The notes under the pieces are model-generated. The model worked only from the letters and a program-made list of their open reading frames with translations, did no database searches and was not told where the DNA came from. Shown in pieces: positions 2,114 to 41,140 of a stretch of DNA of 64,000 nt. Numbering within the stretch: the stretch's first letter is position 1; each line of letters opens with the position of its first letter. This DNA is from a virus, in the IMG/VR virus record IMGVR_UViG_3300016472_000923; one strand, 5' to 3'. The position numbers and the translations under genes are program-made.

Positions 2114-2548
2114 TTAGGATCCTGTGACCAAGTGTAGTTCGTTACCGTTCCGCAACTCAAACGCTTCGATGAAGATGTGATGATCATCGCCCGAATTACG
2201 GATGGCCCAGTCAGCGGCACGATAGATGTCGCCCCAGGTGTTGCCGAACACAGGAACATGACCACCTTGGTAGACCACGAACGCATCTGACAAGTAGGGG
2301 TGGTTCCGGAGGAAGCCATGCTCTTCGAGTTCGTACATCGACCAGATGGCTTCGAGCCGGTGTTCGTCCTTGAATCGATTGTAGTAGGCCATCTTGCGAT
2401 CGAAGTCTTGCTCTTCCTGGCGATAAGCACCGGCCAGGGCCTCGCGGATAGCATCCACCGTGGCTTCAAGTCCCTTGTTGGGGGCGAAGCAAAGAGCGTT
2501 ATGGATTCGGGTAAACTCTTCTGCGGTAAGGGTGACTGAAGTATTCAT
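2114..2548 (-). CDS. Early hypothetical protein
   Basis: 144-aa ORF with SD TAGGAG and its own sigma70 promoter; C-terminal DDHHIFIEAF motif. Confidence 0.75.
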   Translation of the reverse strand: MNTSVTLTAEEFTRIHNALCFAPNKGLEATVDAIREALAGAYRQEEQDFDRKMAYYNRFKDEHRLEAIWSMYELEEHGFLRNHPYLSDAFVVYQGGHVPVFGNTWGDIYRAADWAIRNSGDDHHIFIEAFELRNGNELHLVTGS

Positions 2549-2579
2549 ATCTGGCTCCTAATTTCTAACTGTATGTAAT

Positions 2580-3309: not shown

Positions 3310-3337
3310 TTGCTCCTTTTGTTTACTGTATGCATAT

Positions 3338-4157: not shown

Positions 4158-4187
4158 TTTGGCTCCAATCGTTTACTGTATGCTTAT

Positions 4188-9634: not shown

Positions 9635-10306
9635 TCATAAATGTGGAACTAATTTATCGGCGATAAATTCTGCTATTTTTTTACGGCCCAATAAATTTGG
9701 ATGATTGTAACATGGTCTTATGTATTTTATAACTTGTTCATTGTTTGTAGACAACCAATCATTGAAGTCGCTGTTTCTAAAAATGCTAAACTGTGAAAAC
9801 CATTCTGCATCTAAAACATCCTGGACCATACACCGGTCAGGTGGTAAAAGCCAAACATTTGGTGGGATGGCATGCCATAGTGGATGTAGCCACTCGCTCT
9901 GATAGCTGACATTGAATATGTTCACAAACCATGGAGTGCATTTTCTTTCCTCACAAATTTTTATCAACATAAAACAAGTGATAGCAGATAACCAGCTGTC
10001 TTGATAATCATTCACCGCTCCTTTATTCTCATCAACAGGACAATCAACGATGTGTCCCTTGTAATCAAAATAAAATCTACGGCTGGGTGCTGACATAGAG
10101 AATACCGCATGGTCTTCTTGGCCTAAATTACTTTTAATCGCTATGTCAACCATTTTTAATTGACTCGATCCAGATATCGCATGATTTATCACTGGCCTGT
10201 TCAGCAGTTTGCCGACCATTGATGGATAACCAATGGGATTCTCTATCAACTTTTCAAAATCGTCTTCGATAGTCCAACTATCTCCAAAAAAATGTAATCT
10301 ATTCAT
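9635..10306 (-). CDS. SGNH/GDSL hydrolase-like protein inserted between nrdA and nrdB
   Basis: FFGDSW, NHAISGSS and HPNLLG blocks; AT-richer than its flanks. Probable start MNRLHF (track start 10330). Confidence 0.7.
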   Translation of the reverse strand: MNRLHFFGDSWTIEDDFEKLIENPIGYPSMVGKLLNRPVINHAISGSSQLKMVDIAIKSNLGQEDHAVFSMSAPSRRFYFDYKGHIVDCPVDENKGAVNDYQDSWLSAITCFMLIKICEERKCTPWFVNIFNVSYQSEWLHPLWHAIPPNVWLLPPDRCMVQDVLDAEWFSQFSIFRNSDFNDWLSTNNEQVIKYIRPCYNHPNLLGRKKIAEFIADKLVPHL

Positions 10307-10308
10307 TG

Positions 10309-12624: not shown

Positions 12625-12627
12625 ATT

Positions 12628-13053
12628 CTAACTCGTTAATTGTGGTAATGCCACGCTGGACAGCGTTTTAGTTATGTGAATTTGTTGGGATGAGATATTT
12701 AATATCTGACCTTGGCTCCAATTCAACACATATTTCCCATCATCGACCAGGACTAAATGTCGATCAGAAGTTTGCGCTAAAACGACAGTTGAGGCGATTC
12801 CAGACAAGTGTATAGTGTACACGATTCCCAGTGCGCGGGCAAGATCACAGAAATGATTTTCTTCTAACAATTGCCAAGGATCGGGCCATGTGCGCCAATC
12901 GTCCCAGTGCAGTCTGTATGGACACCAGGGCAAAGAGAACCACCAATCATTGATGGTCGTCAATGACATTTCTTTGGATCCAAGGGACTCTATAGACTCC
13001 CGTAGTCGTACCCAAGATTTCAATCTTTGGGCATATTCACTGGGCCACTTCAA
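12628..13053 (-). CDS. Hypothetical protein, possibly papain/transglutaminase-like
   Basis: WPDPWQLL..NHFCDLARALGI motif; overlaps the upstream stop. Confidence 0.55.
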   Translation of the reverse strand: MKWPSEYAQRLKSWVRLRESIESLGSKEMSLTTINDWWFSLPWCPYRLHWDDWRTWPDPWQLLEENHFCDLARALGIVYTIHLSGIASTVVLAQTSDRHLVLVDDGKYVLNWSQGQILNISSQQIHITKTLSSVALPQLTS

Positions 13054-14621: not shown

Positions 14622-14648
14622 GCTTGAATTCCTTGTTTGACCTGTTAT

Positions 14649-15362
14649 TTATGCGGTCAAGTAGTACTGCTCCAGCCGCTTCCACCATTGCTGTTCCCAA
14701 TGGTCAAAGTCCTGCTCTTCCAGCACGAATTCTTGATATTCAGGTGGTTTAGTGATGTTGAAGTTGGCATCAGTTTCGGGTTTTACACACATCAGTACCA
14801 CGCCTTTGCGTATTTTCGTACCATAGACCTCGTTGTGGGCCAGCGCATAGGCTGCTAACTGCAGGAAATAATCTTCGATCCACTCGCGTTTTTTTGGCTT
14901 GTTGGTCTGCTTGTAATCCAGTATGCTCTCGCTGCCAAGATGTATGCCTGCACCATCGGATGTTCCGGCATACAGACCTGGGAAATACAGGGGTATTTCT
15001 ACGCCCCAGAATTCCGATACATTTTTCAGTCCAGCATCGATCACGGTCATGGCCATGGCGTGGCTGGCCCATGAATAGGGATTGGAACCAGCTTCTTTGA
15101 GTTCACCTGTTTTGACATAGTGCTCAAGGTAAGTGTGCATCCTGGTACCACGATTGGCAGCTTCGGTGGTGATATGTTGGGCTTGCTCCGGGCCCACGCG
15201 CCGACGCCAGTTTTCCAGGGCCATGCGTTTTTCTTCGGGCTTGGTACGGTCAAGGATGGTAGTGACACTGGGCAATTTCTTACCATCGGGTGTGGCATAC
15301 AGTCGACGACCATCTTCTGTGGCCCGACTCAGTGGTTTATAGTCAAATCTAGGATTAATCAA
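14649..15362 (-). CDS. PD-(D/E)XK exonuclease (Cas4/RecB-like phage exonuclease)
   Basis: LPSVTTIL, RGTRMH, AGTSD, LDYKQ and QLAAY motifs. Confidence 0.85.
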   Translation of the reverse strand: MINPRFDYKPLSRATEDGRRLYATPDGKKLPSVTTILDRTKPEEKRMALENWRRRVGPEQAQHITTEAANRGTRMHTYLEHYVKTGELKEAGSNPYSWASHAMAMTVIDAGLKNVSEFWGVEIPLYFPGLYAGTSDGAGIHLGSESILDYKQTNKPKKREWIEDYFLQLAAYALAHNEVYGTKIRKGVVLMCVKPETDANFNITKPPEYQEFVLEEQDFDHWEQQWWKRLEQYYLTA

Positions 15363-15688
15363 ACTCGGAATGATTCGCCGCAGCCGCAGCGATCCTTTTC
15401 TTGGGGGTTGATAAACTCAAAACCTTCGTTGAGGCCTTTTTTCTGGAAATCTATGATCATACCATCTACATAGGCCAAGTGCTCAGGGTTGACATAGACT
15501 CTGACACCTTTGTCATCAAAGTGTGCCACACAGTGTTGCAGACCCTGCTCTTGGTCCACATACTCTAATGTATAGGCCAACCCGCTACAGCCGGTGGTGC
15601 GGACACCTACCTTGATGCCCAGTCCTCGACCGCGCCGGTGTATGGCCGATCTGATCTTTTCAGCGGCGATGTCAGTGACTGAGATCAT
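15359..15688 (-). CDS. iscA: Fe-S cluster assembly A-type carrier
   Basis: GCSGLAY and NP..CGCGESF motifs. Confidence 0.95.
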   Translation of the reverse strand: MISVTDIAAEKIRSAIHRRGRGLGIKVGVRTTGCSGLAYTLEYVDQEQGLQHCVAHFDDKGVRVYVNPEHLAYVDGMIIDFQKKGLNEGFEFINPQEKDRCGCGESFRV

Positions 15689-16061
15689 GTTTCTTGCGAT
15701 AGTCTTCGATGGCAGCCTTGATGGCGTCTTCGGCCAGGATCGAACAATGGATCTTCACAGGCGGCAAAGCCAGCTCATTGGCTATCTCTGTGTTCTTGAT
15801 AGTTGCTGCCTGATCAAGAGTTTTTCCCTTGACCCATTCGGTCACGAGACTGCTGGACGCGATGGCTGATCCGCAGCCGTAAGTTTTAAACCTTGCGTCT
15901 TCGATGATGCCGTCGTCGTTGACCTTGATCTGGAGTTTCATGACGTCTCCGCAAGCCGGCGCCCCCACCATACCAGTACCAACATTGGTATCTGCTTTGT
16001 CAAATGATCCCACGTTTCTTGGATTTTCATAGTGGTCCAAGACTTTATCACTATAAGCCAT
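15672..16061 (-). CDS. iscU: Fe-S cluster scaffold protein
   Basis: DHYENPRNVG, APACGD, YGCGSAIAS and LPPVKIHCS motifs. Confidence 0.97.
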   Translation of the reverse strand: MAYSDKVLDHYENPRNVGSFDKADTNVGTGMVGAPACGDVMKLQIKVNDDGIIEDARFKTYGCGSAIASSSLVTEWVKGKTLDQAATIKNTEIANELALPPVKIHCSILAEDAIKAAIEDYRKKHDLSH

Positions 16062-16079
16062 GACTTCCTCCTATGCTAG

Positions 16080-16108
16080 ATTATACAGAGCGAATACCCT
16101 GTTGTCAA
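16080..16108 (-). promoter_or_regulatory. Perfect consensus sigma70 promoter TTGACA-N17-TATAAT driving iscU-iscA
   Basis: Read directly; followed by SD AGGAGG. Confidence 0.88.
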
Positions 16109-16113
16109 TACTG

Positions 16114-16452
16114 CTATAAACCTTTTTTGGATGCCCGATCGGCCATAGAATCCACTGTTTTACGAGCCTGGTCCACTGTCATGGTATCCGTTACTGGTTC
16201 TTGGTCTGCCCCACGGAATATTATTTCCGTGGGTGTGACAGTTTGTATTATGGTTCTGAGAGGCGGTTGCTGGCTCATGGTTGTGAGATTCTCTGGGGTG
16301 AGACTGATACCCATGTTTTGAGCCAAATTGATGAAGGCACGGACCGAGATCTTTTTCTGGCTGTATGTGTCCTGTGAACGACCGATTAAAAACTGGCTGA
16401 GAGCCATGAGTTGTTCGGCGTCCGGGCTGTCAGTGACTTCCCGGATTTGCAT
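16114..16452 (-). CDS. Probable head-associated protein
   Basis: N-terminal MQIREV, a pattern shared with neighbouring late genes. Confidence 0.55.
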   Translation of the reverse strand: MQIREVTDSPDAEQLMALSQFLIGRSQDTYSQKKISVRAFINLAQNMGISLTPENLTTMSQQPPLRTIIQTVTPTEIIFRGADQEPVTDTMTVDQARKTVDSMADRASKKGL

Positions 16453-17282
16453 TATCTGCGCTCGCGACCTAGATCAGCAGCGCCTGCTTCAGCTTCGGGT
16501 TCCTCTTCGTCAGCAGGGAAAGTGGTATCTATGTCAAGATCCAATTCTTCTTCACCTGCTGGTGGAACAGCAGCAGGCATGGCCGCTGCATCAGCGCCCG
16601 GTACCACAGGAGCCTGTCCTGTTAAAATGCCTTGCGCACCTTCCATCTCTGTTTTGGCGCCTTGCACAGCAGTCAAGAGATTGGCCAAGGCAGCCGATGC
16701 TTGGCTCTGGAACTGGCTGGCCTGCTCCGTGCCGATTTCATTCTTTACTGCGTCGGTCACGGCTGGCACGTTCTTGAACTGCATCTCGGAAACTTCTTCC
16801 ATCATGTCTTGCAATTGATTGACCAGATCCTGGGCTGCCATGACGACTTGTGCTGTCTGGATCTCGCTGGCTTCCATGATACGACGCTCGCCGAGCTTTT
16901 TACCAGCAGCAGCGGCTTTTTGGAAACGCTCTTTGCCGTATTTCTTGCGGCCAATGGCAGCAGCCACGGCTTCAGGATCTCGGGCCGAGCCACCTTTTTT
17001 GATGGCAGCTACGGTTTTTTCGAAGCCCTGGTATTTTTCATCCAGTTGAGCTACCAAGGCTTGTTCCAGCATGACCAGCTTCATATAGTCGGGATTGCGC
17101 TCACTGAAGTGGCGGCTCACACTTGACTTGTGCTCGCGAAGCAGTCCTTGCACGCGATGCAGCATGTGGCGTGTTTGTGACTCAGAAAGTCGATCAAAAT
17201 CAACTTGAGATTCATACTGCCCGCGCAGTGTTTTAGCGATTTGTTCTGTGGGACGGCGTGCGCCCAATTCGTGAAGTTTCAT
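16452..17282 (-). CDS. Probable prohead core/internal protein
   Basis: Start MKLHEL with TAAATA and SD upstream (track start 17318); helical, acidic C-terminus; repeated L/I-x-E sites. Confidence 0.6.
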   Translation of the reverse strand: MKLHELGARRPTEQIAKTLRGQYESQVDFDRLSESQTRHMLHRVQGLLREHKSSVSRHFSERNPDYMKLVMLEQALVAQLDEKYQGFEKTVAAIKKGGSARDPEAVAAAIGRKKYGKERFQKAAAAGKKLGERRIMEASEIQTAQVVMAAQDLVNQLQDMMEEVSEMQFKNVPAVTDAVKNEIGTEQASQFQSQASAALANLLTAVQGAKTEMEGAQGILTGQAPVVPGADAAAMPAAVPPAGEEELDLDIDTTFPADEEEPEAEAGAADLGRERR

Positions 17283-17736
17283 TATTAAATCCTCGGATCT
17301 GCCAGTATTTAGCAACATTGACCCATTTATCTAGGTTCGTTTGTACCCAATGTAATCTTTGCCGACGGCTGGCAATTTTGGCATCGACAGATTCGCGCAC
17401 ATGGATGTCTTTGATACGAGATTTAAGATGAGAGCGAGTATCTATATCTGCGATCAACATGTCTCTTTCTCGGTCCAGTTGATGTATTTGCACGCTGACA
17501 TGCGATTGATGATGCTTTTCCGCGATACACCAGCTGAGTGCAGTCCTTGCAGACCCGAATTCCCGAGGATCTTTACGATCCTGCATGACCATCCATCCGT
17601 TTTGTTTTTTTGTGATTAGATACTGTTCAAACGCTAGATAATCATCACCCTGAGGTAATATGGCATCGGGTAAAATTTTCAGTAATTCTGGCTCCAGCAC
17701 CTGTTGGAGGCGGCGCAATTTGGCAGTGGTGTTCAT
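17233..17736 (-). CDS. Hypothetical protein
   Basis: 167-aa ORF in the operon. Confidence 0.6.
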   Translation of the reverse strand: MNTTAKLRRLQQVLEPELLKILPDAILPQGDDYLAFEQYLITKKQNGWMVMQDRKDPREFGSARTALSWCIAEKHHQSHVSVQIHQLDRERDMLIADIDTRSHLKSRIKDIHVRESVDAKIASRRQRLHWVQTNLDKWVNVAKYWQIRGFNNETSRIGRTPSHRTNR

Positions 17737-17996
17737 TTTATGACGAATGTCGCCAGTAGATAGCCTACTATGCCCACTAGAGATGCTATGATGGCCAGGC
17801 CCCAGCCCATGATTTGATCTGTGCGTTTTTCGCCCATGACTTGCACCATGTCATGTACTTCGCGGATGACAGATCCTTGGGTCTCGATCTTTTCGTCCAT
17901 GTGTCCCAGTTTTTGTTCTAGGAAACGGTAACGCTCGGCACATAATTCCACGTGTGCTTCCAGGCTTTTTTTCTCGATGTCTGTGGTGTCTGGCAT
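17733..17996 (-). CDS. Coiled-coil protein with C-terminal TM helix (XhlA/holin-like)
   Basis: LEAHVELCAERY coiled coil followed by IMGWGLAIIASLVGIVGYLLATFV. Confidence 0.55.
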   Translation of the reverse strand: MPDTTDIEKKSLEAHVELCAERYRFLEQKLGHMDEKIETQGSVIREVHDMVQVMGEKRTDQIMGWGLAIIASLVGIVGYLLATFVIK

Positions 17997-18002
17997 GATG
18001 AT

Positions 18003-18425
18003 TTATTTATGGGTCACAGGCTGGAAGCCAATGTTGCTACCGGGCTCCAGTGTCTGCGTCTGCCCAGGAGTTTCCCCCAGCCCAGTGATCATGGGCACAC
18101 CCAAACAGTCGCGTTCCAACGCGCCAAAAATCCCAGTACCCTCGGCGAATGCATCGTCCTGGTCTATCTCAAACACGAATTCCCAAATGCGCACATCACC
18201 GCTCTGGTCACACTGGCTGGTGGTGATAGAATGCGGCAAAGTTCTAAGGCTCAGCAGCTGATTGATGGTATCCCAGTTTCGTTGCTGATTGCGACTGTGA
18301 TGCCATTGTTGCTGGGTGGTGATATCTTGCCCTGCTTGATCTCGAAAAGGCAGTCGATTAATATTGAAATTATTTTTAACACCCGTGGTTGTTATATCAA
18401 AGGTGGTCCAGCACCGGATCCTCAA
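18003..18425 (-). CDS. Conserved phage hypothetical protein
   Basis: DITTTG, RNQQRNWDT and VPMITGLGET motifs. Confidence 0.65.
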   Translation of the reverse strand: MRIRCWTTFDITTTGVKNNFNINRLPFRDQAGQDITTQQQWHHSRNQQRNWDTINQLLSLRTLPHSITTSQCDQSGDVRIWEFVFEIDQDDAFAEGTGIFGALERDCLGVPMITGLGETPGQTQTLEPGSNIGFQPVTHK

Positions 18426-19051
18426 TGTTTCACCTGCATGATCTGAGCATTGACGGCAATCACTATACGATCTTTCTGTCCACGATAAGTCAGGGCCGAG
18501 TGTGGGATATGGCTAGGGAACACTATCATCATACCAGGTTCGGCTTGGAAATCTATGCTGGTACTGGCAGTCATGTAAGCCGATCCCATGTCGTTCCACA
18601 TGGTGTGATTGGGATTGTAAAAACGATTGGCACCGTTTTTAGTGGCTGTGTCCATGTCTCCGATATCAACGTAGTAGATAGCCGACCATGAACTGCCCGG
18701 ATGCATGTGCATGTCGTGATAGCCACCGTCTCTGGTGATATGGCACCACGATTCGTGTATGTTGACCGCCATGTTGGCTCCCGCGGGCCAATATTTACGA
18801 TTGGCATCAGCTGCGGCACGGAAGATGCTGGCTCGTACAAATTCTGCCAGCGCACGGATCGAGGGGTCGTCATAGTTCAAGAAATCAAAGCCACTTTCGT
18901 ACAAACCGCGCTTGGCATCAGGCGCGATGCCACTGACTTGCTTGTTTTTTTCTAGTTCATAGCATACTCGTTTGATGTTGTCGACGTGGCGATCGTGATC
19001 GGACCAATCGCAATCGTAAAACATAGTGGGCCAAATAGGTATGGGTTGCAT
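18422..19051 (-). CDS. 2OG-Fe(II) oxygenase (TIGR02466-like)
   Basis: SWCHI..GGYHDMHMH, SAIYY and FPSHIPH..RIVIAVN motifs. Probable start MQPIPIW (track start 19069). Confidence 0.85.
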   Translation of the reverse strand: MQPIPIWPTMFYDCDWSDHDRHVDNIKRVCYELEKNKQVSGIAPDAKRGLYESGFDFLNYDDPSIRALAEFVRASIFRAAADANRKYWPAGANMAVNIHESWCHITRDGGYHDMHMHPGSSWSAIYYVDIGDMDTATKNGANRFYNPNHTMWNDMGSAYMTASTSIDFQAEPGMMIVFPSHIPHSALTYRGQKDRIVIAVNAQIMQVKH

Positions 19052-19067
19052 GGCATTATTTACGGCC

Positions 19068-19097
19068 AAAAGAAAACCCCGGAATGTTTCCGGGGTT
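19068..19097 (-). terminator. Rho-independent terminator
   Basis: AACCCCGGAA-TGT-TTCCGGGGTT stem with a U-rich tail on the minus strand. Confidence 0.85.
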
Positions 19098-19121
19098 GTC
19101 GTGATACAGTTGCTCTCGATA

Positions 19122-19583
19122 TTAAGCGAGTTTGAAACCGTTGTCAGTTACATCAGAACCAGCAACGTTCAAGCCTGTGACTGTGCCATCAGATGCAGTG
19201 ATCTGGATGTTGCCCAGACCTTGGATGGTGCTCTGCAGTGTAGCAGCAGTGTAAGCACCAGTTGGGTACAGAGCATAAGAGATCTGACCTGTGGCATCTG
19301 CTTCAACCTGATAGATCGCGATGGTAGCGGTCTGTTGAATGCCTTGGTTGATTGCGTTCACGGCACCAGGTGTGAACACGCCTGAGCTGTAAGAGCCCAG
19401 TTGTGAGCAAAGGTTCTGAGCTTGGTTAGAACCATTCTGAACGATGACTTTGAAAAAGTCAAGTTTGGGACCCTGAGGTTGTACCAGAGCAGCAGAAGTG
19501 ATATTGCCAGTCTGAGGACCGTTCTGGATGTCCAGTGCAAATACTGGTTGCGAATCACCGTTAAAAGGTGGGAAATAAGCCAT
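19122..19583 (-). CDS. Probable abundant virion protein (decoration-like)
   Basis: TAAATA late box, strong SD TAGGAG, own terminator, small-residue beta-rich composition. Confidence 0.55.
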   Translation of the reverse strand: MAYFPPFNGDSQPVFALDIQNGPQTGNITSAALVQPQGPKLDFFKVIVQNGSNQAQNLCSQLGSYSSGVFTPGAVNAINQGIQQTATIAIYQVEADATGQISYALYPTGAYTAATLQSTIQGLGNIQITASDGTVTGLNVAGSDVTDNGFKLA

Positions 19584-19653
19584 TTTGTTTCTCCTAGTTA
19601 GTGACCATTGAAGGTCTACTTTTATTTACCAAAGATGACAGAAATGGTGTCTG

Positions 19654-21510
19654 CTAGGCTAATTCTGGATTGTTTTGGGCGAAGTTGGCCGCAGAAAATC
19701 GCATGCGGTCAACAAACTTCATGCCCTGGCCCACATAGCCTTCGTGGCCAGGCTCATCGTTGACCGAAGCCTGCACGTCCTGGCCCTGCGCATCCAGTTG
19801 CCGCACCAGGTCGTTTTTGAGACTGGAGATGTCCAAGAAGGCCTGGAACACTGCTGCCACGCCTTGTTTGTTGGCAGTGGCCCAGTCAAATATGCGAGGG
19901 GCCTTGGCAGGAGCCCGTTGCTTGACCCACTCGCCAAAGCCTTGTATGAGATTGTCATAAGAGCCCGATCTCACACGGCTGTTGATATACTGTTTGATCA
20001 ACTGTGGGAAGTCCGTGATCTTCCTGGCTCGCAGTTCTTGTGGATCAAACAACTGATCGATGGCCGAACCATACTGGGCGATGATTTTTTGCACATCTCG
20101 GACTGTGCTGTCTCGTAATTTGATCTGGCGTGTTTCTTTTAGGCTAGGATCCAAGATCAACAGTCCTGGCACTGTGTCCAAGGCAGCAGCACGGATAGGC
20201 GTGGCTGGTGCACCAGGTTCTGCCAGGGCAGTATGGATGACCACTCCCACTTGGCTGTCGCCGATCTTCTGCCCAAGATCGGAATCTTTGGGCACACGAT
20301 ATTTCACGGTATTGGGAGTGAATTCATATGCACCGTCTCTCACAGGAGGAGTATCTGTGTACAACAAGTCGCCCTGGATGTATCCACGGAAATCTTCCGG
20401 TGTGGCTGCTCGCAACAAGGGAAACAGTTTCTTGTAGATGTTGATCAGCTCACCGCGCTCGCCTCCGCGAGCAGACATGATGCGCTCGATCTGCTCGGGC
20501 GATGTGGTCAACCCATCATAGCCCTTGGCCAAGAATCCGGCCTTGTCTGTGAGCACGAATTCACCCGTGGGCTTGCGACCAAATATGATAGCTGGCCGGC
20601 CGTCCCATTTCACTGTGGTGCTTTCGGGTCGAGCAGCCGCTGTCAGGATGCCTTGCAGAGCCTGATTCAGTCCTCGGCTGCCCTGATCCAGCACCATGTC
20701 TTCGGGGTGCTCGATACGGACTCCTTCTACTATGATCTGCATGCCTTGATTGACGATGCGATCACGCAGGCGTGCCATGATGTTTATCTCATTATATTCA
20801 GTATAGACATCCGTGTTTTCAGCGATGGGTGTACCGGCCCGCTCCATATGGTCACGGAAGTCTGCGATTTTCTTTTCTCTCTGTGGATCTGTTTTCAACA
20901 CTGCCAGGATGCGCTCAACCGAAGAGAGATCGTCACGAGTGGCTCTGGGATTCAGCAGCATGCGAGCGATCTCGTCGGGATCGTCAGTGATCAGCTCGTT
21001 GGTATCCCTGTTGGCGATGCCAGCGATTTGGTTGAGCTTATACCCCATGCTCTTGGCCATGGAGTTGATAAGCACGGCCCTGGTGGCGCCTTTGTATTCT
21101 GAAGCAGGATCCTGGCGCAGGATCCATTTTGAAAAGTCGGGCTTGGGCAGGAACATGAAATCTGTCTGCACAAACCCTGTGCTGGGTCTTCCGGCTATGG
21201 GAGTGAGCAGATGCACTGCGGTGCCCGACTTGCGTACCCAGTCGCGTGGATCTTCGCCGCGGGCAGCGATCATGTCGGACAGGCGTTTGAAGAATTCTTC
21301 TTTGTTGACTTTGTTGCTGTCAACACCCAGATCCAGGTCACCCGATGTGGGTTTGAGTCCTGTAGATCCCAGCATGTTGTCTTGTAATGGTAAGCCTGTG
21401 ATGCCTTCTAACCATCGTACCGTGGGTGCTATGTCGGCAAGATTGATGCGTTGGGTGCGAGGGCTGCCCTGGGCGTCTTTGAATACATTACCACCTTCTG
21501 CGAGTTTCAT
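19654..21510 (-). CDS. Two-domain protein: N-terminal Pol-beta-type nucleotidyltransferase-like plus C-terminal ligase-like (KWDG, DUF6267-type) domain
   Basis: LGSTG..SGDLDL..VQTDF; HPED, TVKWDGRPA, IQGDLLY, FTPNT and HEGYV..KFVDR motifs. Confidence 0.6.
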   Translation of the reverse strand: MKLAEGGNVFKDAQGSPRTQRINLADIAPTVRWLEGITGLPLQDNMLGSTGLKPTSGDLDLGVDSNKVNKEEFFKRLSDMIAARGEDPRDWVRKSGTAVHLLTPIAGRPSTGFVQTDFMFLPKPDFSKWILRQDPASEYKGATRAVLINSMAKSMGYKLNQIAGIANRDTNELITDDPDEIARMLLNPRATRDDLSSVERILAVLKTDPQREKKIADFRDHMERAGTPIAENTDVYTEYNEINIMARLRDRIVNQGMQIIVEGVRIEHPEDMVLDQGSRGLNQALQGILTAAARPESTTVKWDGRPAIIFGRKPTGEFVLTDKAGFLAKGYDGLTTSPEQIERIMSARGGERGELINIYKKLFPLLRAATPEDFRGYIQGDLLYTDTPPVRDGAYEFTPNTVKYRVPKDSDLGQKIGDSQVGVVIHTALAEPGAPATPIRAAALDTVPGLLILDPSLKETRQIKLRDSTVRDVQKIIAQYGSAIDQLFDPQELRARKITDFPQLIKQYINSRVRSGSYDNLIQGFGEWVKQRAPAKAPRIFDWATANKQGVAAVFQAFLDISSLKNDLVRQLDAQGQDVQASVNDEPGHEGYVGQGMKFVDRMRFSAANFAQNNPELA

Positions 21511-36818: not shown

Positions 36819-38266
36819 TCCAGTTTTTCATGGGTGAATGGATATCTAGCATCTTTGTAGTAGGCCTTGCGTTTGGTCAGATGCCTTTTTGCAAACTTAC
36901 AAGTCGATGTAATATCCCATATCTGTACGAAGTCTTTATCTTCCGCTTTGCGTATCCCACGGCCAATTGACTGGATAACACGCACAAAAGACTTGCCAGG
37001 CTCAACAAGCACCAGATTAAAAATACGGGGAATGTTAATGCCAACCGCAGCAACTCCATAGGTAGCCACAATGATTTTGTCTGTTGCCTCAGCCACTTCG
37101 TCATAGTGATCTTGTCTTTCTCCAGCCTTGGTAGCACCGGATATGAATACCGCGTTCGGCAATCTATTTACCAACTCCTGGCCCGGGGCGATGCGGTCAA
37201 CCAACACCAAGGTATTGCCGGTCTTGTTGACTTCGGCAATCAGCGTGGCCATGGTATCTAATCTGCCGCTCTCTTCCAACAGGTATTTGAGTTCGCTCTG
37301 ATAGTTGTTGTACTCCACATGGTCTACTAACTGCACGATGTTGACATGGCACTGTGCCAGCACTCCTCGATCCTGCAGTTCAGCAGCCGCCAGGCGCGAT
37401 ACCACAGGTCCCAAGCTCACATGTATGGCCTGGAACTCAAAGTCTTCCTTGGGCACAGTTCCTGTCAAACCCCACCGGATTGGCACTTGCGACATCACGC
37501 CAGTGAGCAAGGTTTTCAATGCATCAGCCTTGGCCATGTGTACTTCGTCCACTATCACACATACCACACCCTCCAAGAACTCCCCGATGGTGATGTCAGC
37601 AGATTGATTCTTGGTATTCTTCAGCAGGACATTAAGGCTCTGCCAAGTGCAGATGGTATGTTGGCGGCCGAACTCTTTCCTGTCCCCAAAGAACACACCG
37701 GTGTCTAGTCCGAGATTGACATAGTCCTTCTCGGTCTGTGTGACCAAGCTCTTGTTAGGCACTATGACGATGCTACGACCATAGGGCGTGACAGCATGAC
37801 TCAAGGCCGCGGTCATCACGGTCTTGCCAGCACCCGTGGCCACTTCTTGTATGCACTGTGGATTGGCCAAGAAGTCATTGATGATCTCGATCTGATAGTC
37901 ACGGAGAGAAACAGGTTCTCCAGCTTGGGGATGCCCTTTGGGCCAAGTGTACTGTGAAAATGTATCCTCTACCACTGGAGTAAATTCAAAAGTGGTGGTA
38001 TACTCTCTCTGGTCATCGAGCTCAACATCATAGTCATATTCTTCCAGCACTGGCAGGATCTCGGGCAACAGGTTCACATAAGTGGATCCACCCAGTTGGA
38101 AAAATGATACCTTGCCGTCCCAGCGTCCTAATCTCACAGCGGGCAGATAGCGAGCGTAAGGTACATCGTACTTGAATTTGTTCACTAGAGCTCGTCTGGC
38201 ATCCAGTTCCAGTCCTTCGATTTTGACATTGACTTCGTCACGGATTATCAAACGGGCTTGTCTCAC
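36806..38266 (-). CDS. uvsW: SF2 DNA helicase UvsW-like
   Basis: LRDYQ, ATGAGKT, DEVH, LTGT and QSIGRGIR motifs. Confidence 0.92.
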   Translation of the reverse strand: MRQARLIIRDEVNVKIEGLELDARRALVNKFKYDVPYARYLPAVRLGRWDGKVSFFQLGGSTYVNLLPEILPVLEEYDYDVELDDQREYTTTFEFTPVVEDTFSQYTWPKGHPQAGEPVSLRDYQIEIINDFLANPQCIQEVATGAGKTVMTAALSHAVTPYGRSIVIVPNKSLVTQTEKDYVNLGLDTGVFFGDRKEFGRQHTICTWQSLNVLLKNTKNQSADITIGEFLEGVVCVIVDEVHMAKADALKTLLTGVMSQVPIRWGLTGTVPKEDFEFQAIHVSLGPVVSRLAAAELQDRGVLAQCHVNIVQLVDHVEYNNYQSELKYLLEESGRLDTMATLIAEVNKTGNTLVLVDRIAPGQELVNRLPNAVFISGATKAGERQDHYDEVAEATDKIIVATYGVAAVGINIPRIFNLVLVEPGKSFVRVIQSIGRGIRKAEDKDFVQIWDITSTCKFAKRHLTKRKAYYKDARYPFTHEKLEWMK

Positions 38267-39075
38267 AGTGTTATTCTTTTAGGATATGTTAAGTTTTGGA
38301 ATCTTGATTCTAGTACCTGCACATCATCAACCACTCCAATTGGAATTATAGCAGACATTTCCCAAGGTTGCCAACCTGTTTGATTCCAATGTTGACACCA
38401 GTCATTTTTGAAGGGCTCAAACCATTGATTGAATCCATCGATGTTTTTTGGTTTGACCATGCCATCAAGATCGATGTGCATCACAGGCTTCAGCCAGATC
38501 CAAGGTTTGGCCAATTCACAGATACGCCGGAGATCGGCCGGTTCTCTGTCACAGAAATATTGATAAGGAGTCTTGCCCAGCTCATGCTGATGTAGGAAAC
38601 ACAGGCCAGGGTATGTTGTTGTTTGAGCGTATTCCAGGAATGATCTGTCAAATGGTTTGATCAAAGGTCCGGCCGCTGGCCCATAGTCAAACCAAACATC
38701 AGTATGGCTGCGATTGTTCTTGTTTTTGTCTTCCAACAAATGGATTATATCATGCGCTTTTAACCAGGTTGCATCTTCTGGATTTTGGCTGAACTGGGAT
38801 ACATAGATGTCATGCAATCGATTCAGATATTGCTGATCATGTAAAAGATCTGGATTGATCTCCTCCGCGGACGCCAACCTACAATCAAGCAAAAGTTCGA
38901 TCAATTCTTGCCGGGATTGTGCGTCTGATTCATAGGGGTTCTCTCTAGCACCAAATCTAAGATCCACATGCCGCAGATGTTTTATGCAACCATGGTAATA
39001 GTGTGCTACGGGGTTGTCAAACAATTTCACTGGTACCTTGAGACCATCTGACCAGGTGATGTAAACTTCGGGCAT
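38263..39075 (-). CDS. Hypothetical protein (paralog of 58043-58987)
   Basis: LNRLH, IHLLE, LGKT and IPIG motifs. Confidence 0.65.
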   Translation of the reverse strand: MPEVYITWSDGLKVPVKLFDNPVAHYYHGCIKHLRHVDLRFGARENPYESDAQSRQELIELLLDCRLASAEEINPDLLHDQQYLNRLHDIYVSQFSQNPEDATWLKAHDIIHLLEDKNKNNRSHTDVWFDYGPAAGPLIKPFDRSFLEYAQTTTYPGLCFLHQHELGKTPYQYFCDREPADLRRICELAKPWIWLKPVMHIDLDGMVKPKNIDGFNQWFEPFKNDWCQHWNQTGWQPWEMSAIIPIGVVDDVQVLESRFQNLTYPKRITL

Positions 39076-39092
39076 GTTGATATTTAATGGTC

Positions 39093-39123
39093 AAAAAAAG
39101 AGGTGCCGTTTTAAGGGCACCTC
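39093..39123 (-). terminator. Rho-independent terminator
   Basis: GAGGTGCC-N8-GGCACCTC followed by T7 on the minus strand. Confidence 0.9.
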
Positions 39124-39128
39124 AGAAA

Positions 39129-39165
39129 CGGATCGCCTAGGAGCTAGACAGTAAACGGCGACCCG
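39129..39165 (-). ncRNA. Candidate 3'-UTR regulatory hairpin/sRNA with anti-leader and anti-SD loop
   Basis: Minus strand: CGGGTCGCC-[GTTTACTGTCTAGCTCCTA]-GGCGATCCG, a 9-bp stem including one G-U pair. Confidence 0.55.
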
Positions 39166-39174
39166 GTACTGCTC

Positions 39175-40203
39175 TTAGCCGTGACGCATACAGGTCGACT
39201 CGGCCAAAGCCTGCCAGTTGTCGCCTATCTTGGTGAGATCGGCCAACTTCAGTGCCATGCGCAAGCTGATCTCTCTCAGCCGGGCATGATTGTCCTGCAT
39301 GAACTGGACGATCTCTTCGCCTTGTTCGGCTGTTAGTTCGTAGTCCTGGAACAAGTCACCTTTGCGGAAGATCTGGCGGATGCGCAGGATCTTGTCGCGG
39401 GTGGTGTCCAGGGTCAAGTCCAGGAAGTGGCACCGACTTTGCAGAGCCTCCAAGTGGTCTTGCAGTTTCTTTGATTTGAGGTGATCAAACTTCAAGTTGG
39501 TGATAAAGATCACTGAACCTTTGAAGTCAAAAGCATCAGGCACACCTTCTCGGCGCAACATCGAGCTGTCAGCGTTCCAGTGGATGCGACGCTTCTTGCC
39601 CGAGTCTAGAGCAGCCTTCAGGATGTTCAGCGCAACATCGTCTAAGAGGATCGAGTCACAGTCGTCGAACACCAGCACATTGCGCGGGTCCGAATTCTTG
39701 TAGAGAGTGCAGTACAGTCCAATGGGCGTCATTGCCCCCTTGATCACCTGGTACTTGATCTTCTTGCCGGAGATCTGATCAAACATGCCAGCCTTCTCCA
39801 GCTGATACTCCACGCCGTAGGATTTGCCTACTCCGGGAGGGCCCACCACGATCATGGCACGGATGTCGCCTGAGATAGCGGCTTTGGTCATGTCGTCCAG
39901 GATGTTGAATCTCTTTTCGATTCGATCCATGACCTGCTCGTCGGTCTCTGCTTCGGGAGCAGTCTTGAACTCTACTACATTGTCAGGCTTTGACACAGGC
40001 TTGTCTCCTACGAATTTGATGTCATCGATAGAACTCACACGAACTCGGATCTGCTCCGGCATGCCCGGGAACACGCCATTGTTGGCTACCACTACATTGC
40101 CGCCTTTGGCGTCAGTTTGGAAGTCACGGACTAGGGGAAAAGTCATGCCCGAAACTGGTTGATTGCGATATGTCCCGTTCAGGATCTGTACTTGAGTAGT
40201 CAT
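39175..40203 (-). CDS. AAA+ ATPase (early)
   Basis: GPPGVGKS Walker A, LVFDDCD Walker B, FITN and ALQSR motifs. Start MTTQVQ with SD TAGGAG (track start 40233). Confidence 0.85.
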   Translation of the reverse strand: MTTQVQILNGTYRNQPVSGMTFPLVRDFQTDAKGGNVVVANNGVFPGMPEQIRVRVSSIDDIKFVGDKPVSKPDNVVEFKTAPEAETDEQVMDRIEKRFNILDDMTKAAISGDIRAMIVVGPPGVGKSYGVEYQLEKAGMFDQISGKKIKYQVIKGAMTPIGLYCTLYKNSDPRNVLVFDDCDSILLDDVALNILKAALDSGKKRRIHWNADSSMLRREGVPDAFDFKGSVIFITNLKFDHLKSKKLQDHLEALQSRCHFLDLTLDTTRDKILRIRQIFRKGDLFQDYELTAEQGEEIVQFMQDNHARLREISLRMALKLADLTKIGDNWQALAESTCMRHG

Positions 40204-40235
40204 TGCTACGCTCCTATTTTGTTTACTATACAAAT

Positions 40236-40264
40236 ATTATACGATTTATTGTTTTTTTGGTCAA
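40236..40264 (-). promoter_or_regulatory. Early promoter GGTTGACC-N17-TATAAT
   Basis: Same family as the promoters at 2.6-4.2 kb. Confidence 0.8.
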
Positions 40265-40386
40265 CCGCCGCTAAACACTAGGTTAGTAAGCACTTACCAA
40301 CAGATCCATAGACCCGGACTTAGGTTTTTACGCCCTAAAAACGGGCTACCCTGGATCTCTGCCGGGGGCGGAGAATGTCTTTCAAT
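40265..40386 (-). ncRNA. Candidate structured RNA or leader between two tandem early promoters
   Basis: Nested stems AGATCCA/TGGATCT, GCCCG/CGGGT and GTTTTTA/TAAAAAC, plus palindrome GTTGGTAAG-TG-CTTACTAAC; no convincing ORF with an RBS. Confidence 0.4.
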
Positions 40387-40392
40387 GTTGTA

Positions 40393-40421
40393 AGTGTACA
40401 GAAATAGGGTTTTTTGGTCAA
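40393..40421 (-). promoter_or_regulatory. Early promoter GGTTGACC-N17-TACACT
   Basis: Same family; the -35 element overlaps the upstream stop codon. Confidence 0.65.
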
Positions 40422-41140
40422 CCCCAGTGTTCTAGGATAGACCGTTCCTGCACTTCATGCGGCTTGGGACTGCCGTGGAAAATTATCACGGAAGAGTCCT
40501 TGGGGATATTTGCACCCGCTCCGGGTTGGCGGTGTGCTCGTCTTTGATTGTCCCACCCGCCATCTTTGATCTGCCACCGATAACTCAGTACCCGATGCTG
40601 ATCTAAAAAGCCGATCTGGTCCCGGGGCAACACTGAGTTTAGATAGTCTTGATCTCCAGAGAATCGTTTGATCATGGCATTGCGATCTTGTTTGAGCCAG
40701 CCATCCCAGATCCAATGGAATCTCGCAGGGTCCCAATACATGATACTGGAATTGATTTCTTGCCTGTCAGATCGCCAGAGGTAACGGAAATCACGCACTG
40801 CCCAAAAACGGTCCAAGGGCAGGTCCATGATCCAATCTATGTTGTTGACAATGACAGTGTCAAGATCAAAAAATAGCAGCGGCGCCTCCACCATGTTCTT
40901 AGAGTTGAACATCTGCATCTTATACCACCATGATTTCCGAGGACCGGAAACTCCTGGCCACTCGGTCAGCTCATGTTTTATGTAATCACCGGGCACGGAT
41001 CTACGAGCTTCTGTCCACACATGCAATCGGATATCTCTGGTACAACAACGATCCAGCATGCGACGGAGATTTTCTACATAACGCCAGTCGTACTTGTCTC
41101 CGTGGATGACACAGGCACAATCGATCAATGTATGACTCAT
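40418..41140 (-). CDS. GT-A glycosyltransferase (GT8-like)
   Basis: WWYKMQMF, FFDLD, NSSIM, GDQ and FHGSPKP motifs. Confidence 0.8.
   Translation of the reverse strand: MSHTLIDCACVIHGDKYDWRYVENLRRMLDRCCTRDIRLHVWTEARRSVPGDYIKHELTEWPGVSGPRKSWWYKMQMFNSKNMVEAPLLFFDLDTVIVNNIDWIMDLPLDRFWAVRDFRYLWRSDRQEINSSIMYWDPARFHWIWDGWLKQDRNAMIKRFSGDQDYLNSVLPRDQIGFLDQHRVLSYRWQIKDGGWDNQRRAHRQPGAGANIPKDSSVIIFHGSPKPHEVQERSILEHWG

What the first reader, a model, noticed from the sequence alone, without database searches (positions are those of the whole stretch)
39093..39174. 3'-UTR hairpin whose loop is antisense to the phage's own early-mRNA leaders and SD: candidate early-gene shut-off sRNA
SEEN: Between the AAA ATPase stop and its terminator, the minus strand folds into a 9-bp stem with the 19-nt loop GUUUACUGUCUAGCUCCUA. 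The stem contains a G-U pair that works only on the transcribed strand. The loop's 5' half (GUUUACUGU) is the exact complement of the leader ACAGUAAAC after the early promoters at 3321-3329 and 4171-4179 (10 nt there, counting one stem base). It also pairs, with one G-U, to the ATPase's own leader at 40221-40229. The 3' half (UGUCUAGCUCCUA) pairs at 12 of 13 positions with UAGGAGCCAGAUA, which spans the SD to the start-codon A of the gene at 2548, and pairs with the (U)AGGAGC/GGAGC SDs of the other early genes. KNOWN: 3'-UTR-derived sRNAs with seed loops and U-tailed terminators repress translation by occluding the RBS. INFERRED: this is a two-seed trans-acting RNA that accumulates from an early transcript and silences the early regulon, including its own gene and possibly SD-led host mRNAs. 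The two seeds are in permuted order relative to the targets, so each target probably uses one seed at a time.
Basis: partly seen in the sequence, partly recalled or inferred. Interest (0 to 1): 0.9.

Follow-up and report, generated by a model that had tools for sequence, protein, structure and literature searches.

The report
Phage mRNA tail masks own ribosome site
The untranslated tail of an early phage ATPase message carries a hairpin whose loop is complementary to that message's own ribosome-binding site. The two sites have changed together across more than sixty related uncultured phages, so it is very probably a built-in brake on the gene's translation rather than a shut-off RNA for all early genes.

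Summary
The 9-bp hairpin, its sense-strand-only G-U pair, the 19-nt loop, the terminator and all the stated complementarities are present.

The comparison with relatives splits the loop in two:
- **3' half, CUAGCUCCUA (anti-Shine-Dalgarno).** It is invariant in about 58 close relatives. In more distant clades it is replaced by other sequences that are again complementary to the ribosome-binding site of the same ATPase gene. There are at least ten pairing solutions and at least 8-11 coordinated changes on the ATPase tree, one of them in the SD core itself.
- **Position.** The element always sits just before the terminator of the transcription unit, even where 150-1030 nt of extra ORFs follow the ATPase.
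- **Specificity.** It matches the ATPase leader better than it matches neighbouring early leaders.
- **5' half, GUUUACUGU (anti-leader).** It is found only in this phage. In relatives this part of the loop varies in sequence and length and does not track their leaders.

My reading is a 3'-end anti-RBS element that pairs with its own mRNA's RBS, as in icaR (fold-back) or OppZ/CarZ (autoregulatory 3'UTR sRNA). I cannot decide between action in cis and in trans. The regulon-wide two-seed idea remains a low-probability, lineage-specific possibility.

This scan has noted the same element before on other genomes (e1-5744539, e1-5595316, e1-5367176). No expression data exist.

The parts
40236..40264 (-). 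Sigma-70-type early promoter of the ATPase unit: -35 TTGACC at 40264-40259, a 17-nt spacer, and -10 TATAAT at 40241-40236. The inferred start is near A40229.
   Evidence: The same GGTTGACCAAAAAA...TATAAT module stands at 2609, 3367, 3826, 4217 and 40421. A promoter directly precedes the ATPase in the related loci where upstream sequence is held.
40221..40229 (-). Start of the leader, AUAGUAAAC. It is a variant of the shared early-leader motif ACAGUAAAC and is complementary (with one G-U) to the 5' half of the loop.
40201..40216 (-). ATPase ribosome-binding site UAGGAGC-G-UAGCAAUG. The SD GGAGC is at 40214-40210 and the AUG at 40203-40201. UAGGAGC plus UAG pair with CUA-GCUCCUA of the loop, giving 7+3 bp with G40209 bulged.
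   Evidence: 3' half against this leader: -13.8 kcal/mol, z -2.5. The bulged arrangement GGAGC-N-UAG(AC) is shared by the closest relatives.
39175..40203 (-). AAA-type ATPase gene of 342 aa, a homologue of T4-group NrdC.10. It is the first and here the only gene of the transcription unit.
   Evidence: 39.6% identity to Pseudomonas phage PA5oct, 34% to RB69 nrdC.10. Pfam AAA, E 1.5e-4; 592 relatives in IMG/VR.
39129..39165 (-). Hairpin 1: a 9-bp stem (39165-39157 with 39137-39129) and a 19-nt loop (39156-39138).
   Evidence: centroid fold; 8 of 9 stem pairs show changes on both sides among 16 relatives, and the G-U pairs fit the sense strand only.
39138..39147 (-). Anti-RBS seed CUAGCUCCUA, the 3' half of the loop. 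The wider block GUCUAGCUCCUAGG at 39149-39136 is the conserved one.
   Evidence: In alignment A1 of 16 relatives UCUAGCUCCUAG is invariant and the flanking bases are at least 90% conserved. About 42 further IMG/VR loci were retrieved by exact match to the 14-mer, so they share it by selection. Covariation with the ATPase RBS in more distant clades is shown.
39148..39156 (-). Loop 5' half GUUUACUGU, the 'anti-leader' seed. It is specific to this lineage.
   Evidence: Exact complement of 3329-3321 and 4179-4171. In relatives this segment is 2-9 nt long, with unrelated sequence and no complementarity above 5-6 nt to their own leaders.
39093..39128 (-). U-rich spacer (39128-39124) and intrinsic terminator: stems 39123-39116 and 39107-39100, then U7 at 39099-39093.
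   Evidence: four terminator stem pairs carry compensatory changes. The U-tract runs into a relic -35, TTGACC, at 39094-39089.
4171..4179 (-). Early-leader motif ACAGUAAAC after promoter P4217. This is a possible lineage-specific trans target of the loop's 5' half (10 nt with the closing C).
   Evidence: -13.7 kcal/mol, z -3.5.
3321..3329 (-). Early-leader motif ACAGUAAAC after promoter P3367. Possible lineage-specific trans target.
   Evidence: -11.3 kcal/mol, z -2.2.
2548..2560 (-). RBS UAGGAGCCAGAUA of the early gene that starts at 2548. It pairs with the loop's 3' half at 12 of 13 positions and is a possible additional trans target.
   Evidence: rank 4 of about 16,000 windows; -16.1 kcal/mol.

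Best explanation
The hairpin is this phage's copy of a conserved 3'-end anti-RBS element of the early ATPase (NrdC.10-like) transcription unit.

The unpaired sequence CUAGCUCCUA is held open in a hairpin loop just upstream of the intrinsic terminator. It base-pairs with the Shine-Dalgarno region UAGGAGC(G)UAG of the same message.

Most likely mechanism:
- Ribosomes can load while the 1.1-kb message is still being transcribed.
- Once the 3' end is made, the tail folds back on the 5' leader, or pairs with the leader of a sister molecule. This occludes the ribosome-binding site.
- Each transcript then gives only a limited burst of ATPase, and synthesis stops soon after the early promoter is switched off.

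Shown: the element, its RNA structure, its conservation, and its covariation with the ATPase's own RBS.

Inferred: that pairing represses rather than protects, that it acts mainly in cis, and any role of RNase III, RNase E or Hfq.

The loop's 5' half (GUUUACUGU) is most likely a non-conserved spacer whose match to the early-leader motif is a coincidence or a recent gain.
For: 1. Complementarity is the rule. In 62 related loci that hold both a leader and a downstream terminator, the 55 nt before the terminator contain an exact Watson-Crick complement of 7 nt or more to the 28-nt ATPase RBS region in 52 loci. Shuffled controls reach this in 7.5% of cases and a same-sense control in 4 of 62. Six loci that the terminator filter missed also carry the element.

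2. Covariation. The position after GGAGC and the position before GCUCC form U:A in 17 non-redundant types, A:U in 7 and C:G in 2. Whole pairing solutions differ by clade:
- UAGGAGC-N-UAGAC with GUCUAGCUCCUA
- ACGGAGCAA with UUGCUCCGU
- AGGAGCUAUA with UAUAGCUCCU
- GGAGCCAACC-AUG with CAU-U-GGUUGGCUCC
- GGGCUAGAAA with UUUCUAGCCC, where the SD core itself has changed
Own pairs beat cross pairs in a permutation test at p about 5e-5. The joint solution changes at least 11 times on a tree of 56 ATPases, against a minimum possible of 8.

3. The element follows the 3' end of the unit, not the ATPase stop codon. With 150-1034 nt of inserted ORFs it still sits just before the terminator and still matches the ATPase leader.

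4. Specificity. Other early genes in the same loci have different SD flanks and match less well.

5. RNA-level features. Stem covariation and sense-strand-only G-U pairs are seen. The anti-RBS is in a loop or a single-stranded 5' flank, with mean unpaired probability 0.67 against 0.48 for the rest of the segment.

6. Feasibility in cis. Partition-function folding of full-length transcripts (1.1-1.4 kb) pairs the SD core with the 3' anti-SD core at P 0.94 or higher in 10 of 12 representatives. The window gives 0.32 and L009 0.18, although for loop-borne elements this nested model must melt the hairpin to allow the pairing.

7. Precedent. The icaR 3'UTR motif UCCCCUG pairs with its own SD, blocks initiation and creates an RNase III substrate (PMC3868564). 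Anti-SD-like 8-mers hundreds of nt from the RBS pair with it and repress in vivo (PMC12697547).
Against: - There are no expression, end-mapping or probing data.
- In the window itself the own-RBS duplex is only 7+3 bp with a bulge (-13.8 kcal/mol). That is weaker than the match to the RBS of gene 2548 (-16.1), and it is not among the top 10 sites in an energy scan of the window.
- Full-length folding gives only P 0.32 here.
- The sign of the effect is inferred. Pairing could instead shield the RBS or the mRNA from nucleases.
- The covarying clades are not all independent, so the number of events is about ten, not sixty.
- A few relatives lack the element (L013, L038, L039).
Confidence: 0.72

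Rival explanations
1. An autoregulatory 3'UTR-derived small RNA of the OppZ/CarZ type. RNase E would cut the tail (hairpin 1, U-rich spacer, terminator, U7; about 70-80 nt) off the ATPase mRNA. The stable fragment would accumulate, perhaps on Hfq, and repress ATPase translation in trans. In this phage it might also repress gene 2548. This overlaps with the best explanation and differs only in acting in trans through a processed species.
For: - The architecture is seed-bearing hairpin, U-rich spacer, GC-rich terminator, then a run of at least 7 U. This is conserved across clades.
- The seed is exposed.
- The element stays at the 3' end of the unit whatever lies upstream.
- A conserved single-stranded CAGUAC or UAAGUA segment lies upstream of the element and could be a processing site.
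- Precedent: OppZ and CarZ are cut from operon 3' ends and pair with their own transcripts (PMC7398697).
Against: - No RNA data exist, and no RNase E site or Hfq dependence can be shown.
- The host is unknown.
- Thermodynamic folding already closes the full-length mRNA in cis in most relatives.
- For icaR, ectopic expression of the 3'UTR had no effect in trans (PMC3868564, section 14).
Confidence: 0.25
2. One reading: a two-seed trans-acting RNA that shuts off the whole early regulon. The 5' half of the loop would pair with the shared leader ACAGUAAAC, and the 3' half with GGAGC-type SDs, possibly including host mRNAs.
For: - There is an exact 9-10-nt complement to two early leaders, and 8 pairs plus a G-U to the third.
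- Chance gives this in about 0.2% of draws for 9 nt or more.
- These sites rank 3rd and 4th of about 16,000 windows for the 5' half, and the gene-2548 RBS ranks 4th for the 3' half.
- The ACAGUAAAC-type leader motif is itself conserved in distant relatives (L016, L055-L065).
Against: - None of about 58 related loops carries this seed or any complement above 5-6 nt to its own leader. The segment varies from 2 to 9 nt.
- Relatives whose ATPase leader has ACAGUAAAC do not have GUUUACUGU in their 3' element.
- The anti-SD flanks track the ATPase RBS, not the other early genes.
- The two seeds are in permuted order and cannot bind one leader at the same time.
- With about 60 lineages looked at and a post-hoc search, one such match is not extraordinary.
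Confidence: 0.12
3. The same 5'-3' pairing, but with a protective effect. Closing the message would shield the GGAG-containing RBS or the 5' end from an endonuclease (a RegB-like phage enzyme, RNase E or RNase Y) and so stabilise the mRNA, as proposed for the B. subtilis hbs 5'/3'-UTR interaction.
For: - The pairing evidence is the same as for the best explanation.
- T4-group phages are known to cleave GGAG in early SDs with RegB (general knowledge, not tested here).
- The hbs precedent is in PMC5737220 (abstract).
Against: - A duplex over the SD and, in some clades, the AUG itself must also block initiation.
- No RegB homologue was looked for.
Confidence: 0.1
4. A DNA-level feature or chance: an inverted repeat flanking the gene that serves as a protein-binding or recombination site, or the relic of an SD on the opposite strand.
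For: - Complementary RNA is formally the same thing as an inverted DNA repeat.
- On the plus strand the loop reads CCTAGGAGCTAGAC, which looks like an SD.
Against: - G-U pairs occur in the stem and in some intermolecular pairings, and they work only on the sense strand.
- One-base bulges are tolerated.
- The element is always in a loop or a single-stranded flank next to a terminator.
- One partner is always exactly the SD/AUG of the first gene.
- No start codon follows on the opposite strand in the window.
- The repeats are only 7-13 bp long and lie 1.1-2.1 kb apart.
Confidence: 0.03

Closest known systems
icaR mRNA of Staphylococcus aureus: 5'UTR-3'UTR base pairing (Ruiz de los Mozos et al. 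2013, PMC3868564)
   Same: A pyrimidine-rich anti-SD motif in the 3'UTR pairs with the Shine-Dalgarno region of the same mRNA. The proposed result is a block of initiation. Cis versus trans is unresolved in both cases.
   Different: - icaR has a 3'UTR of about 390 nt and a 40-nt interaction, in a Gram-positive chromosome, and is shown by genetics, toeprinting and RNase III assays.
- Here the tail is about 80 nt and the duplex 7-13 bp, with the seed shown in a hairpin loop or flank beside the terminator, in a phage early gene.
- The evidence here is purely comparative: natural compensatory changes, and no experiments.
OppZ and CarZ, autoregulatory 3'UTR-derived sRNAs of Vibrio cholerae (Hoyos et al. 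2020, PMC7398697)
   Same: The element sits at the 3' end of the transcription unit and shares its terminator. It base-pairs with a translation start region of its own transcript, giving negative feedback.
   Different: - OppZ and CarZ are shown to be RNase E products, bound by Hfq and acting in trans. OppZ targets an internal cistron and triggers Rho termination.
- Here no processed species is shown, and the target is the first gene's RBS.
hok mRNA fold-back inhibition (fbi/tac pairing) of plasmid R1 hok/sok
   Same: The 3' end of a full-length mRNA pairs with its 5' region and keeps the finished transcript translationally inert. This comes from general knowledge and is mentioned in PMC3868564, section 14.
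   Different: - In hok the 5' partner is a translational activator element and not the SD itself. Slow 3' trimming releases the lock, and the gene is a toxin.
- None of this is indicated here.
Long-range anti-SD-like sequences in Bacillus subtilis mRNAs (Gill et al. 2025 preprint, PMC12697547)
   Same: Short anti-SD-like sequences hundreds of nt from the RBS pair with it in vivo, block initiation and speed decay. This shows that an 8-nt site 1 kb away can work.
   Different: - There such sequences are synthetic inserts, and natural ones are depleted by selection.
- Here one is positively conserved and co-evolves with its RBS.
T4 genes e, soc, 49 and I-TevI: RBS sequestered in long early transcripts
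   Same: A T4-group phage uses intramolecular pairing over an RBS to time translation (general knowledge).
   Different: - In T4 the masking sequence lies just upstream of the RBS, and a late promoter inside it frees the site.
- Here the masking sequence is at the far 3' end of the same message.

Membership tests
icaR-type 5'UTR-3'UTR anti-SD interaction | The 3'UTR contains a motif complementary to the SD region of the same mRNA | tested here: met
   In the window, CUA-GCUCCUA pairs with UAGGAGC(G)UAG. In relatives, 52 of 62 loci have an exact complement of 7 nt or more, against 7.5% of shuffles.
icaR-type 5'UTR-3'UTR anti-SD interaction | The pairing is functional: compensatory changes keep it | tested here: met
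   This rests on natural covariation only. There are three Watson-Crick pair types at the position flanking the core, at least ten pairing solutions including a changed SD core, and at least 11 coordinated changes on the ATPase tree. No mutational test was done.
icaR-type 5'UTR-3'UTR anti-SD interaction | The interaction prevents formation of the 30S initiation complex and lowers protein output | not testable with these tools
   This needs toeprinting or reporter assays. It is inferred only from the duplex covering the SD and, in some clades, the AUG.
icaR-type 5'UTR-3'UTR anti-SD interaction | The duplex is a substrate for RNase III | not testable with these tools
   The duplexes here are 7-13 bp, shorter than typical RNase III substrates. 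No data.
icaR-type 5'UTR-3'UTR anti-SD interaction | It acts within one molecule (cis) | tested here: inconclusive
   Full-length folding pairs the SD with the anti-SD at P 0.94 or higher in 10 of 12 relatives, but at 0.32 in the window. This is thermodynamic prediction only.
Autoregulatory 3'UTR-derived sRNA (OppZ/CarZ type) | It is encoded at the 3' end of the unit, shares its intrinsic terminator, and has no promoter of its own | tested here: met
   The element always lies directly 5' of the unit's terminator. I saw no promoter-like site in the ATPase 3' coding end (read by eye; no promoter scan covered this region).
Autoregulatory 3'UTR-derived sRNA (OppZ/CarZ type) | It base-pairs with a translation start region of its own transcript | tested here: met
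   Same evidence as above.
Autoregulatory 3'UTR-derived sRNA (OppZ/CarZ type) | It is released as a stable small RNA by RNase E and is Hfq-associated | not testable with these tools
   No RNA-seq is available. The host is unknown.
   The 3' seed is conserved. The 5' seed is absent from about 58 related loops and has no complement above 5-6 nt to their own leaders.
   Each half ranks early leaders 3rd or 4th of about 16,000 windows. For the whole loop, the best sites are unrelated coding positions, and the own leader is not in the top 10.
Intrinsic (Rho-independent) terminator | A GC-rich stem-loop followed by a U-tract | tested here: met
   An 8-bp stem, an 8-nt loop and U7 at 39123-39093. Four stem pairs carry compensatory changes.
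Any Rfam family | A match to a curated covariance model | tested here: not met
   There was no hit at gathering score in the whole window, and none at E of 1 or below in 38950-40450.

The most novel reading that the evidence does not exclude
In this one phage lineage, the conserved self-limiting anti-RBS loop has gained a second seed, GUUUACUGU, against the first nine bases of the shared early-leader sequence. The tail of the ATPase message would then be a bifunctional regulator. It would close its own mRNA and, as it accumulates, also pair with the extreme 5' ends or RBSs of other early transcripts (P3367, P4217, gene 2548). That would tie the shut-off of part of the early regulon to ATPase transcription, and would be a snapshot of how a cis fold-back element evolves into a trans-acting sRNA.
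Probability: 0.13. Interest if true: 0.8.

Novelty: new variant of a known kind. Interest (0 to 1): 0.62.

Why it matters
Pairing between a bacterial mRNA's 3'UTR and its own Shine-Dalgarno site is known from very few cases: icaR, the related hok fold-back, and the OppZ/CarZ sRNAs. None of them rests on broad phylogenetic covariation, and my literature searches found none described in a lytic phage.

What is new here:
- The same logic is fixed at one early gene across a large, diverse group of uncultured freshwater T4-like phages.
- There are about ten natural 'compensatory mutant' pairs. These include a change of the SD core itself and survival of the pairing after ORFs were inserted between the two sites.

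What this offers:
- A ready-made allelic series for testing how a 7-13-bp contact 1-2 kb away controls translation.
- A simple way for a phage to limit and time an early protein without a protein repressor.
- A search rule that can be applied genome-wide: the pre-terminator sequence is complementary to the first RBS of the unit.

The promoters are consensus sigma-70, so the system should be testable in E. coli reporters although the host is unknown.

Tried and rejected
- **DNA search of cultured phages.** Megablast of 38200-40300 against 50,697 phage records found nothing. Only protein-level relatives exist, below 40% identity.
- **Whole genome and sequencing runs.** Neither is available for this window. 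There are therefore no expression data and no host.
- **Rfam.** No family matched at gathering score or at E of 1 or below.
- **Search for the same device at other units in the window.** The early region 2540-4300 has back-to-back promoters without terminators and no anti-RBS tails. TAGCTCC and GCTCCTAG occur on the minus strand only here or inside coding sequence. The pattern scan of 1-20000 was uninformative, and a second scan exceeded the size limit.
- **Energy-only target prediction within the window.** This does not discriminate. G-U-rich coding sites beat the real leaders for the full loop. I rely on comparative evidence instead.
- **Cultured homologues.** PA5oct has an 8-nt complement (AGUAGCAU / AUGCUACU) between its leader and a hairpin arm after the gene. 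The chance of that is about 1-2%, and the complement is buried in a stem. ZZ1 and VAP7 show nothing convincing. I did not count any of this as support.
- **Opposite-strand SD or small ORF, and a DNA inverted repeat.** I considered both and rejected them (see rivals).
- **My first crude gene caller.** It mis-set many starts and was used only to see that most genes lack a strong SD.
- **Rows left out of the tree.** Ten were dropped because my coordinates gave an in-frame stop: L011, L012, L047, L053, L059, L060, L064, L065, L071, L074.

Full report
**1. What is there**

All features are on the minus strand. A consensus early promoter (TTGACC-17-TATAAT, 40264-40236) drives a leader of about 26 nt, AUAGUAAACAAAAUAGGAGCGUAGCA-AUG. 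It is followed by a 342-aa AAA-type ATPase gene (40203-39175). The protein is 39.6% identical to a PA5oct protein and 34% identical to RB69 NrdC.10.

After the stop codon comes an 82-nt tail:
- a 9-nt linker;
- hairpin 1, with a 9-bp stem (39165-39157 with 39137-39129, one G-U pair) and the 19-nt loop GUUUACUGUCUAGCUCCUA;
- the spacer UUUCU;
- a GC-rich terminator hairpin and U7.

**2. Relatives**

The window has no DNA relative among cultured phages. The ATPase finds 592 loci in IMG/VR, and I kept 80 of them at 61-91% identity. Later I fetched about 42 more loci through the invariant 14-mer GTCTAGCTCCTAGG. Earlier notes on this genome and its TAAATA boxes indicate a large T4-like phage from uncultured, mostly freshwater, samples.

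**3. The loop has two different halves**

I aligned 16 relatives of the window's clade.
- The hairpin stem shows changes on both sides in 8 of its 9 pairs. Its G-U pairs fit only the sense strand, so it is an RNA structure.
- Within the loop, UCUAGCUCCUAG is invariant and the wider block (A)GUCUAGCUCCUAGG is at least 90% conserved.
- The loop's 5' part varies in sequence and in length, from 2 to 9 nt.
- Among about 58 loops of this type, none carries GUUUACUGU. None has more than 5-6 nt of complementarity between this segment and the leaders in its own locus.
- Drawing the 7 variable bases at random gives a complement of 9 nt or more to one of this phage's six early leaders in 0.18% of trials. 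That is notable. But it is a single lineage among about 60 and was found post hoc.

**4. The conserved half pairs with the ATPase's own ribosome-binding site**

Almost every relative has GGAGC as the ATPase SD and GCUCC in the tail, and the flanks change together:

| Leader | Tail | Loci |
|---|---|---|
| UAGGAGC-N-UAGAC | GUCUA-GCUCCUA | window clade; N is bulged |
| AGGAGCUAG | CUAGCUCCU | L009, L047-49, L080 |
| UAGGAGCUAA | UUAGCUCCUA | L014 |
| ACGGAGCAA | UUGCUCCGU | L010 |
| AGGAGCUA | UAGCUCCU | L022-L042 |
| AGGAGCUAUA | UAUAGCUCCU | L045 |
| GGAGCCAACC-AUG | CAU-U-GGUUGGCUCC | L050-L079; covers the start codon |
| GGGCUAGAAA | UUUCUAGCCC | L062, L071, L074; the SD core itself differs |

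The numbers:
- At the position next to the core, the pair is U:A in 17 non-redundant types, A:U in 7 and C:G in 2.
- In 62 loci with both ends available, 52 have an exact complement of 7 nt or more. Shuffled tails reach this in 7.5% of cases, and a same-sense control in 4 of 62.
- Six loci that my terminator filter missed also carry the element.
- Own leader-tail pairs beat cross-locus pairs, with permutation p about 5e-5.
- On a quick maximum-likelihood tree of 56 ATPases, the joint solution changes at least 11 times. The minimum possible for nine labels is 8, and some solutions recur in separate starred clades. Ten rows were left out because of coordinate errors.

The number of independent events is therefore of the order of ten, not sixty.

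**5. The element belongs to the transcript's 3' end and to the first RBS**

In many loci, one to three ORFs (150-1034 nt) lie between the ATPase stop and the terminator. The element is still immediately 5' of the terminator and still matches the ATPase leader.

Neighbouring early genes in the same loci have other SD flanks or no GGAGC, and they match less well.

The structural context differs between clades: a hairpin loop in some, the single-stranded 5' flank of a hairpin in others. In all of them the anti-RBS is preferentially unpaired, at 0.67 against 0.48 for the rest of the segment.

**6. Cis or trans**

I folded full-length transcripts (1.1-1.4 kb) with a partition function.
- The SD core pairs with the 3' anti-SD core at P 0.94 or higher in 10 of 12 representatives.
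- The window gives 0.32 and L009 gives 0.18.
- For loop-borne elements, the nested model must open the hairpin to allow this pairing. A loop-to-leader kissing contact would not be captured at all.

So a fold-back is thermodynamically plausible.

The tail also has the form of a 3'UTR-derived sRNA: an exposed seed, a U-rich spacer, a terminator and U7. I cannot separate these two modes. For icaR they are unresolved as well (PMC3868564, section 14).

**7. The window's own targets**

Duplex energies, with z-scores against shuffled queries, are:

| Loop half | Target | kcal/mol | z |
|---|---|---|---|
| 3' | own ATPase RBS | -13.8 | -2.5 |
| 3' | gene-2548 RBS | -16.1 | -3.8 |
| 5' | P4217 leader | -13.7 | -3.5 |
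| 5' | P3367 leader | -11.3 | -2.2 |

In a scan of the whole window, each half ranks these sites 3rd or 4th of about 16,000. The full loop finds better, G-U-rich coding sites, and the own leader is not in the top ten. Energy alone would therefore not have identified the target. The comparative data do.

**8. Comparison with what is known**

There is no Rfam family. The closest described systems are:
- the icaR 5'-3' UTR pairing (PMC3868564);
- the autoregulatory 3'UTR sRNAs OppZ and CarZ (PMC7398697);
- hok fold-back inhibition;
- the recent demonstration that anti-SD-like 8-mers act over hundreds of nt (PMC12697547).

My literature searches found no phage example.

This scan has already noted what looks like the same ATPase-tail element on other genomes (e1-5744539, e1-5595316, e1-5367176). 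My analysis was done on my own loci before I read those notes, and it reaches the same reading.

**9. Verdict**

It is a real, conserved RNA regulatory element with an anti-SD seed, but its conserved partner is its own gene's RBS.
- The 'anti-leader' seed and the regulon-wide shut-off are not supported by conservation. They remain a low-probability novelty specific to this lineage.
- Repression, the cis or trans mode, and any nuclease or chaperone involvement are inferences.

Noticed in passing
window 40265-40421 (-); L003:887-1000: The non-coding stretch fired by promoter P40421, just upstream of the ATPase promoter, has a block that is nearly identical in a relative at 90% protein identity: CUCCGCCCCCGGCAG.GAUCCAGGGUAGCCC...GGGC.UAAAACCUAAGUCCGGGUC. 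No terminator separates it from the ATPase leader, so some ATPase transcripts may carry a structured 5' extension of about 190 nt that includes a CUCC motif.
   Followed up: partly
window 39080-39099 (-); L001, L008, L009, L010, L047 just after the terminator: The terminator U-tract runs straight into TTGAC, the -35 of the next promoter, and a GTAAATA late-type box sits in the spacer. In most relatives the next gene starts 5-8 nt after a TATAAT-like -10, so its mRNA is leaderless or nearly so. The window keeps TTGACC and TAAATA (39086-39081) but has no -10, and its downstream gene (39075-38263) has no SD.
   Followed up: no
window 2545-2609, 3305-3367, 3766-3826, 4157-4217, 40203-40264 (-): There are five near-identical early cassettes: GGTTGACCAA(A/T)AAA, spacer, TA(T/C)AAT, 5-7 nt, then CATA(C)AGTAAAC or a variant, then GGAGC, then ATG. 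The initial transcribed motif ACAGTAAAC also occurs in the ATPase leaders of distant relatives (L016, L055-L065). It appears inverted (GTTTACTGTAGC) in L038 and L039, which are also among the few loci that lack the 3' anti-RBS element.
   Followed up: partly
L057, L064, L069, L055 (150-300 nt after the ATPase stop); L022, L036, L040, L042, L046 (300-690 nt); L050, L072, L076, L078 (760-1030 nt): Small ORFs are inserted between the ATPase and the anti-RBS element in several clades. One is a very hydrophobic peptide of about 30-40 aa, and another begins MI.DLKLQAGIQDNPDQEGLDLFA. They become part of the same fold-back unit.
   Followed up: no
window 39166-39171 (-); relatives, 8-12 nt upstream of the anti-RBS: A short conserved single-stranded motif precedes the element. 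It is (G)CAGUAC(C) in the window's clade and UAAGUA(C/U) in the AGGAGCUA clade. It could be a processing site or a protein or Hfq contact. In some loci its UAA is the stop codon of the preceding ORF.
   Followed up: no
L081 (Pseudomonas phage PA5oct, MK797984.1 248735-249933): The cultured homologue has the leader ...UAGGAGUAGCAUUUAUG and, right after the gene, the hairpin AAAGUAGCA-AGGA-UGCUACUUU. Its 3' arm is complementary to AGUAGCAU, which overlaps the SD. This is only 8 nt, the chance is about 1-2%, and the site is buried in a stem. PA5oct can be grown, so it could be checked.
   Followed up: partly
window, whole: Most predicted genes have no recognisable Shine-Dalgarno sequence. The strong GGAGC SDs are concentrated in the promoter-led early cassettes. 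The C after GGAG does not extend pairing to the canonical 16S anti-SD, so it may be kept for other reasons, such as pairing with the tail's G.
   Followed up: no
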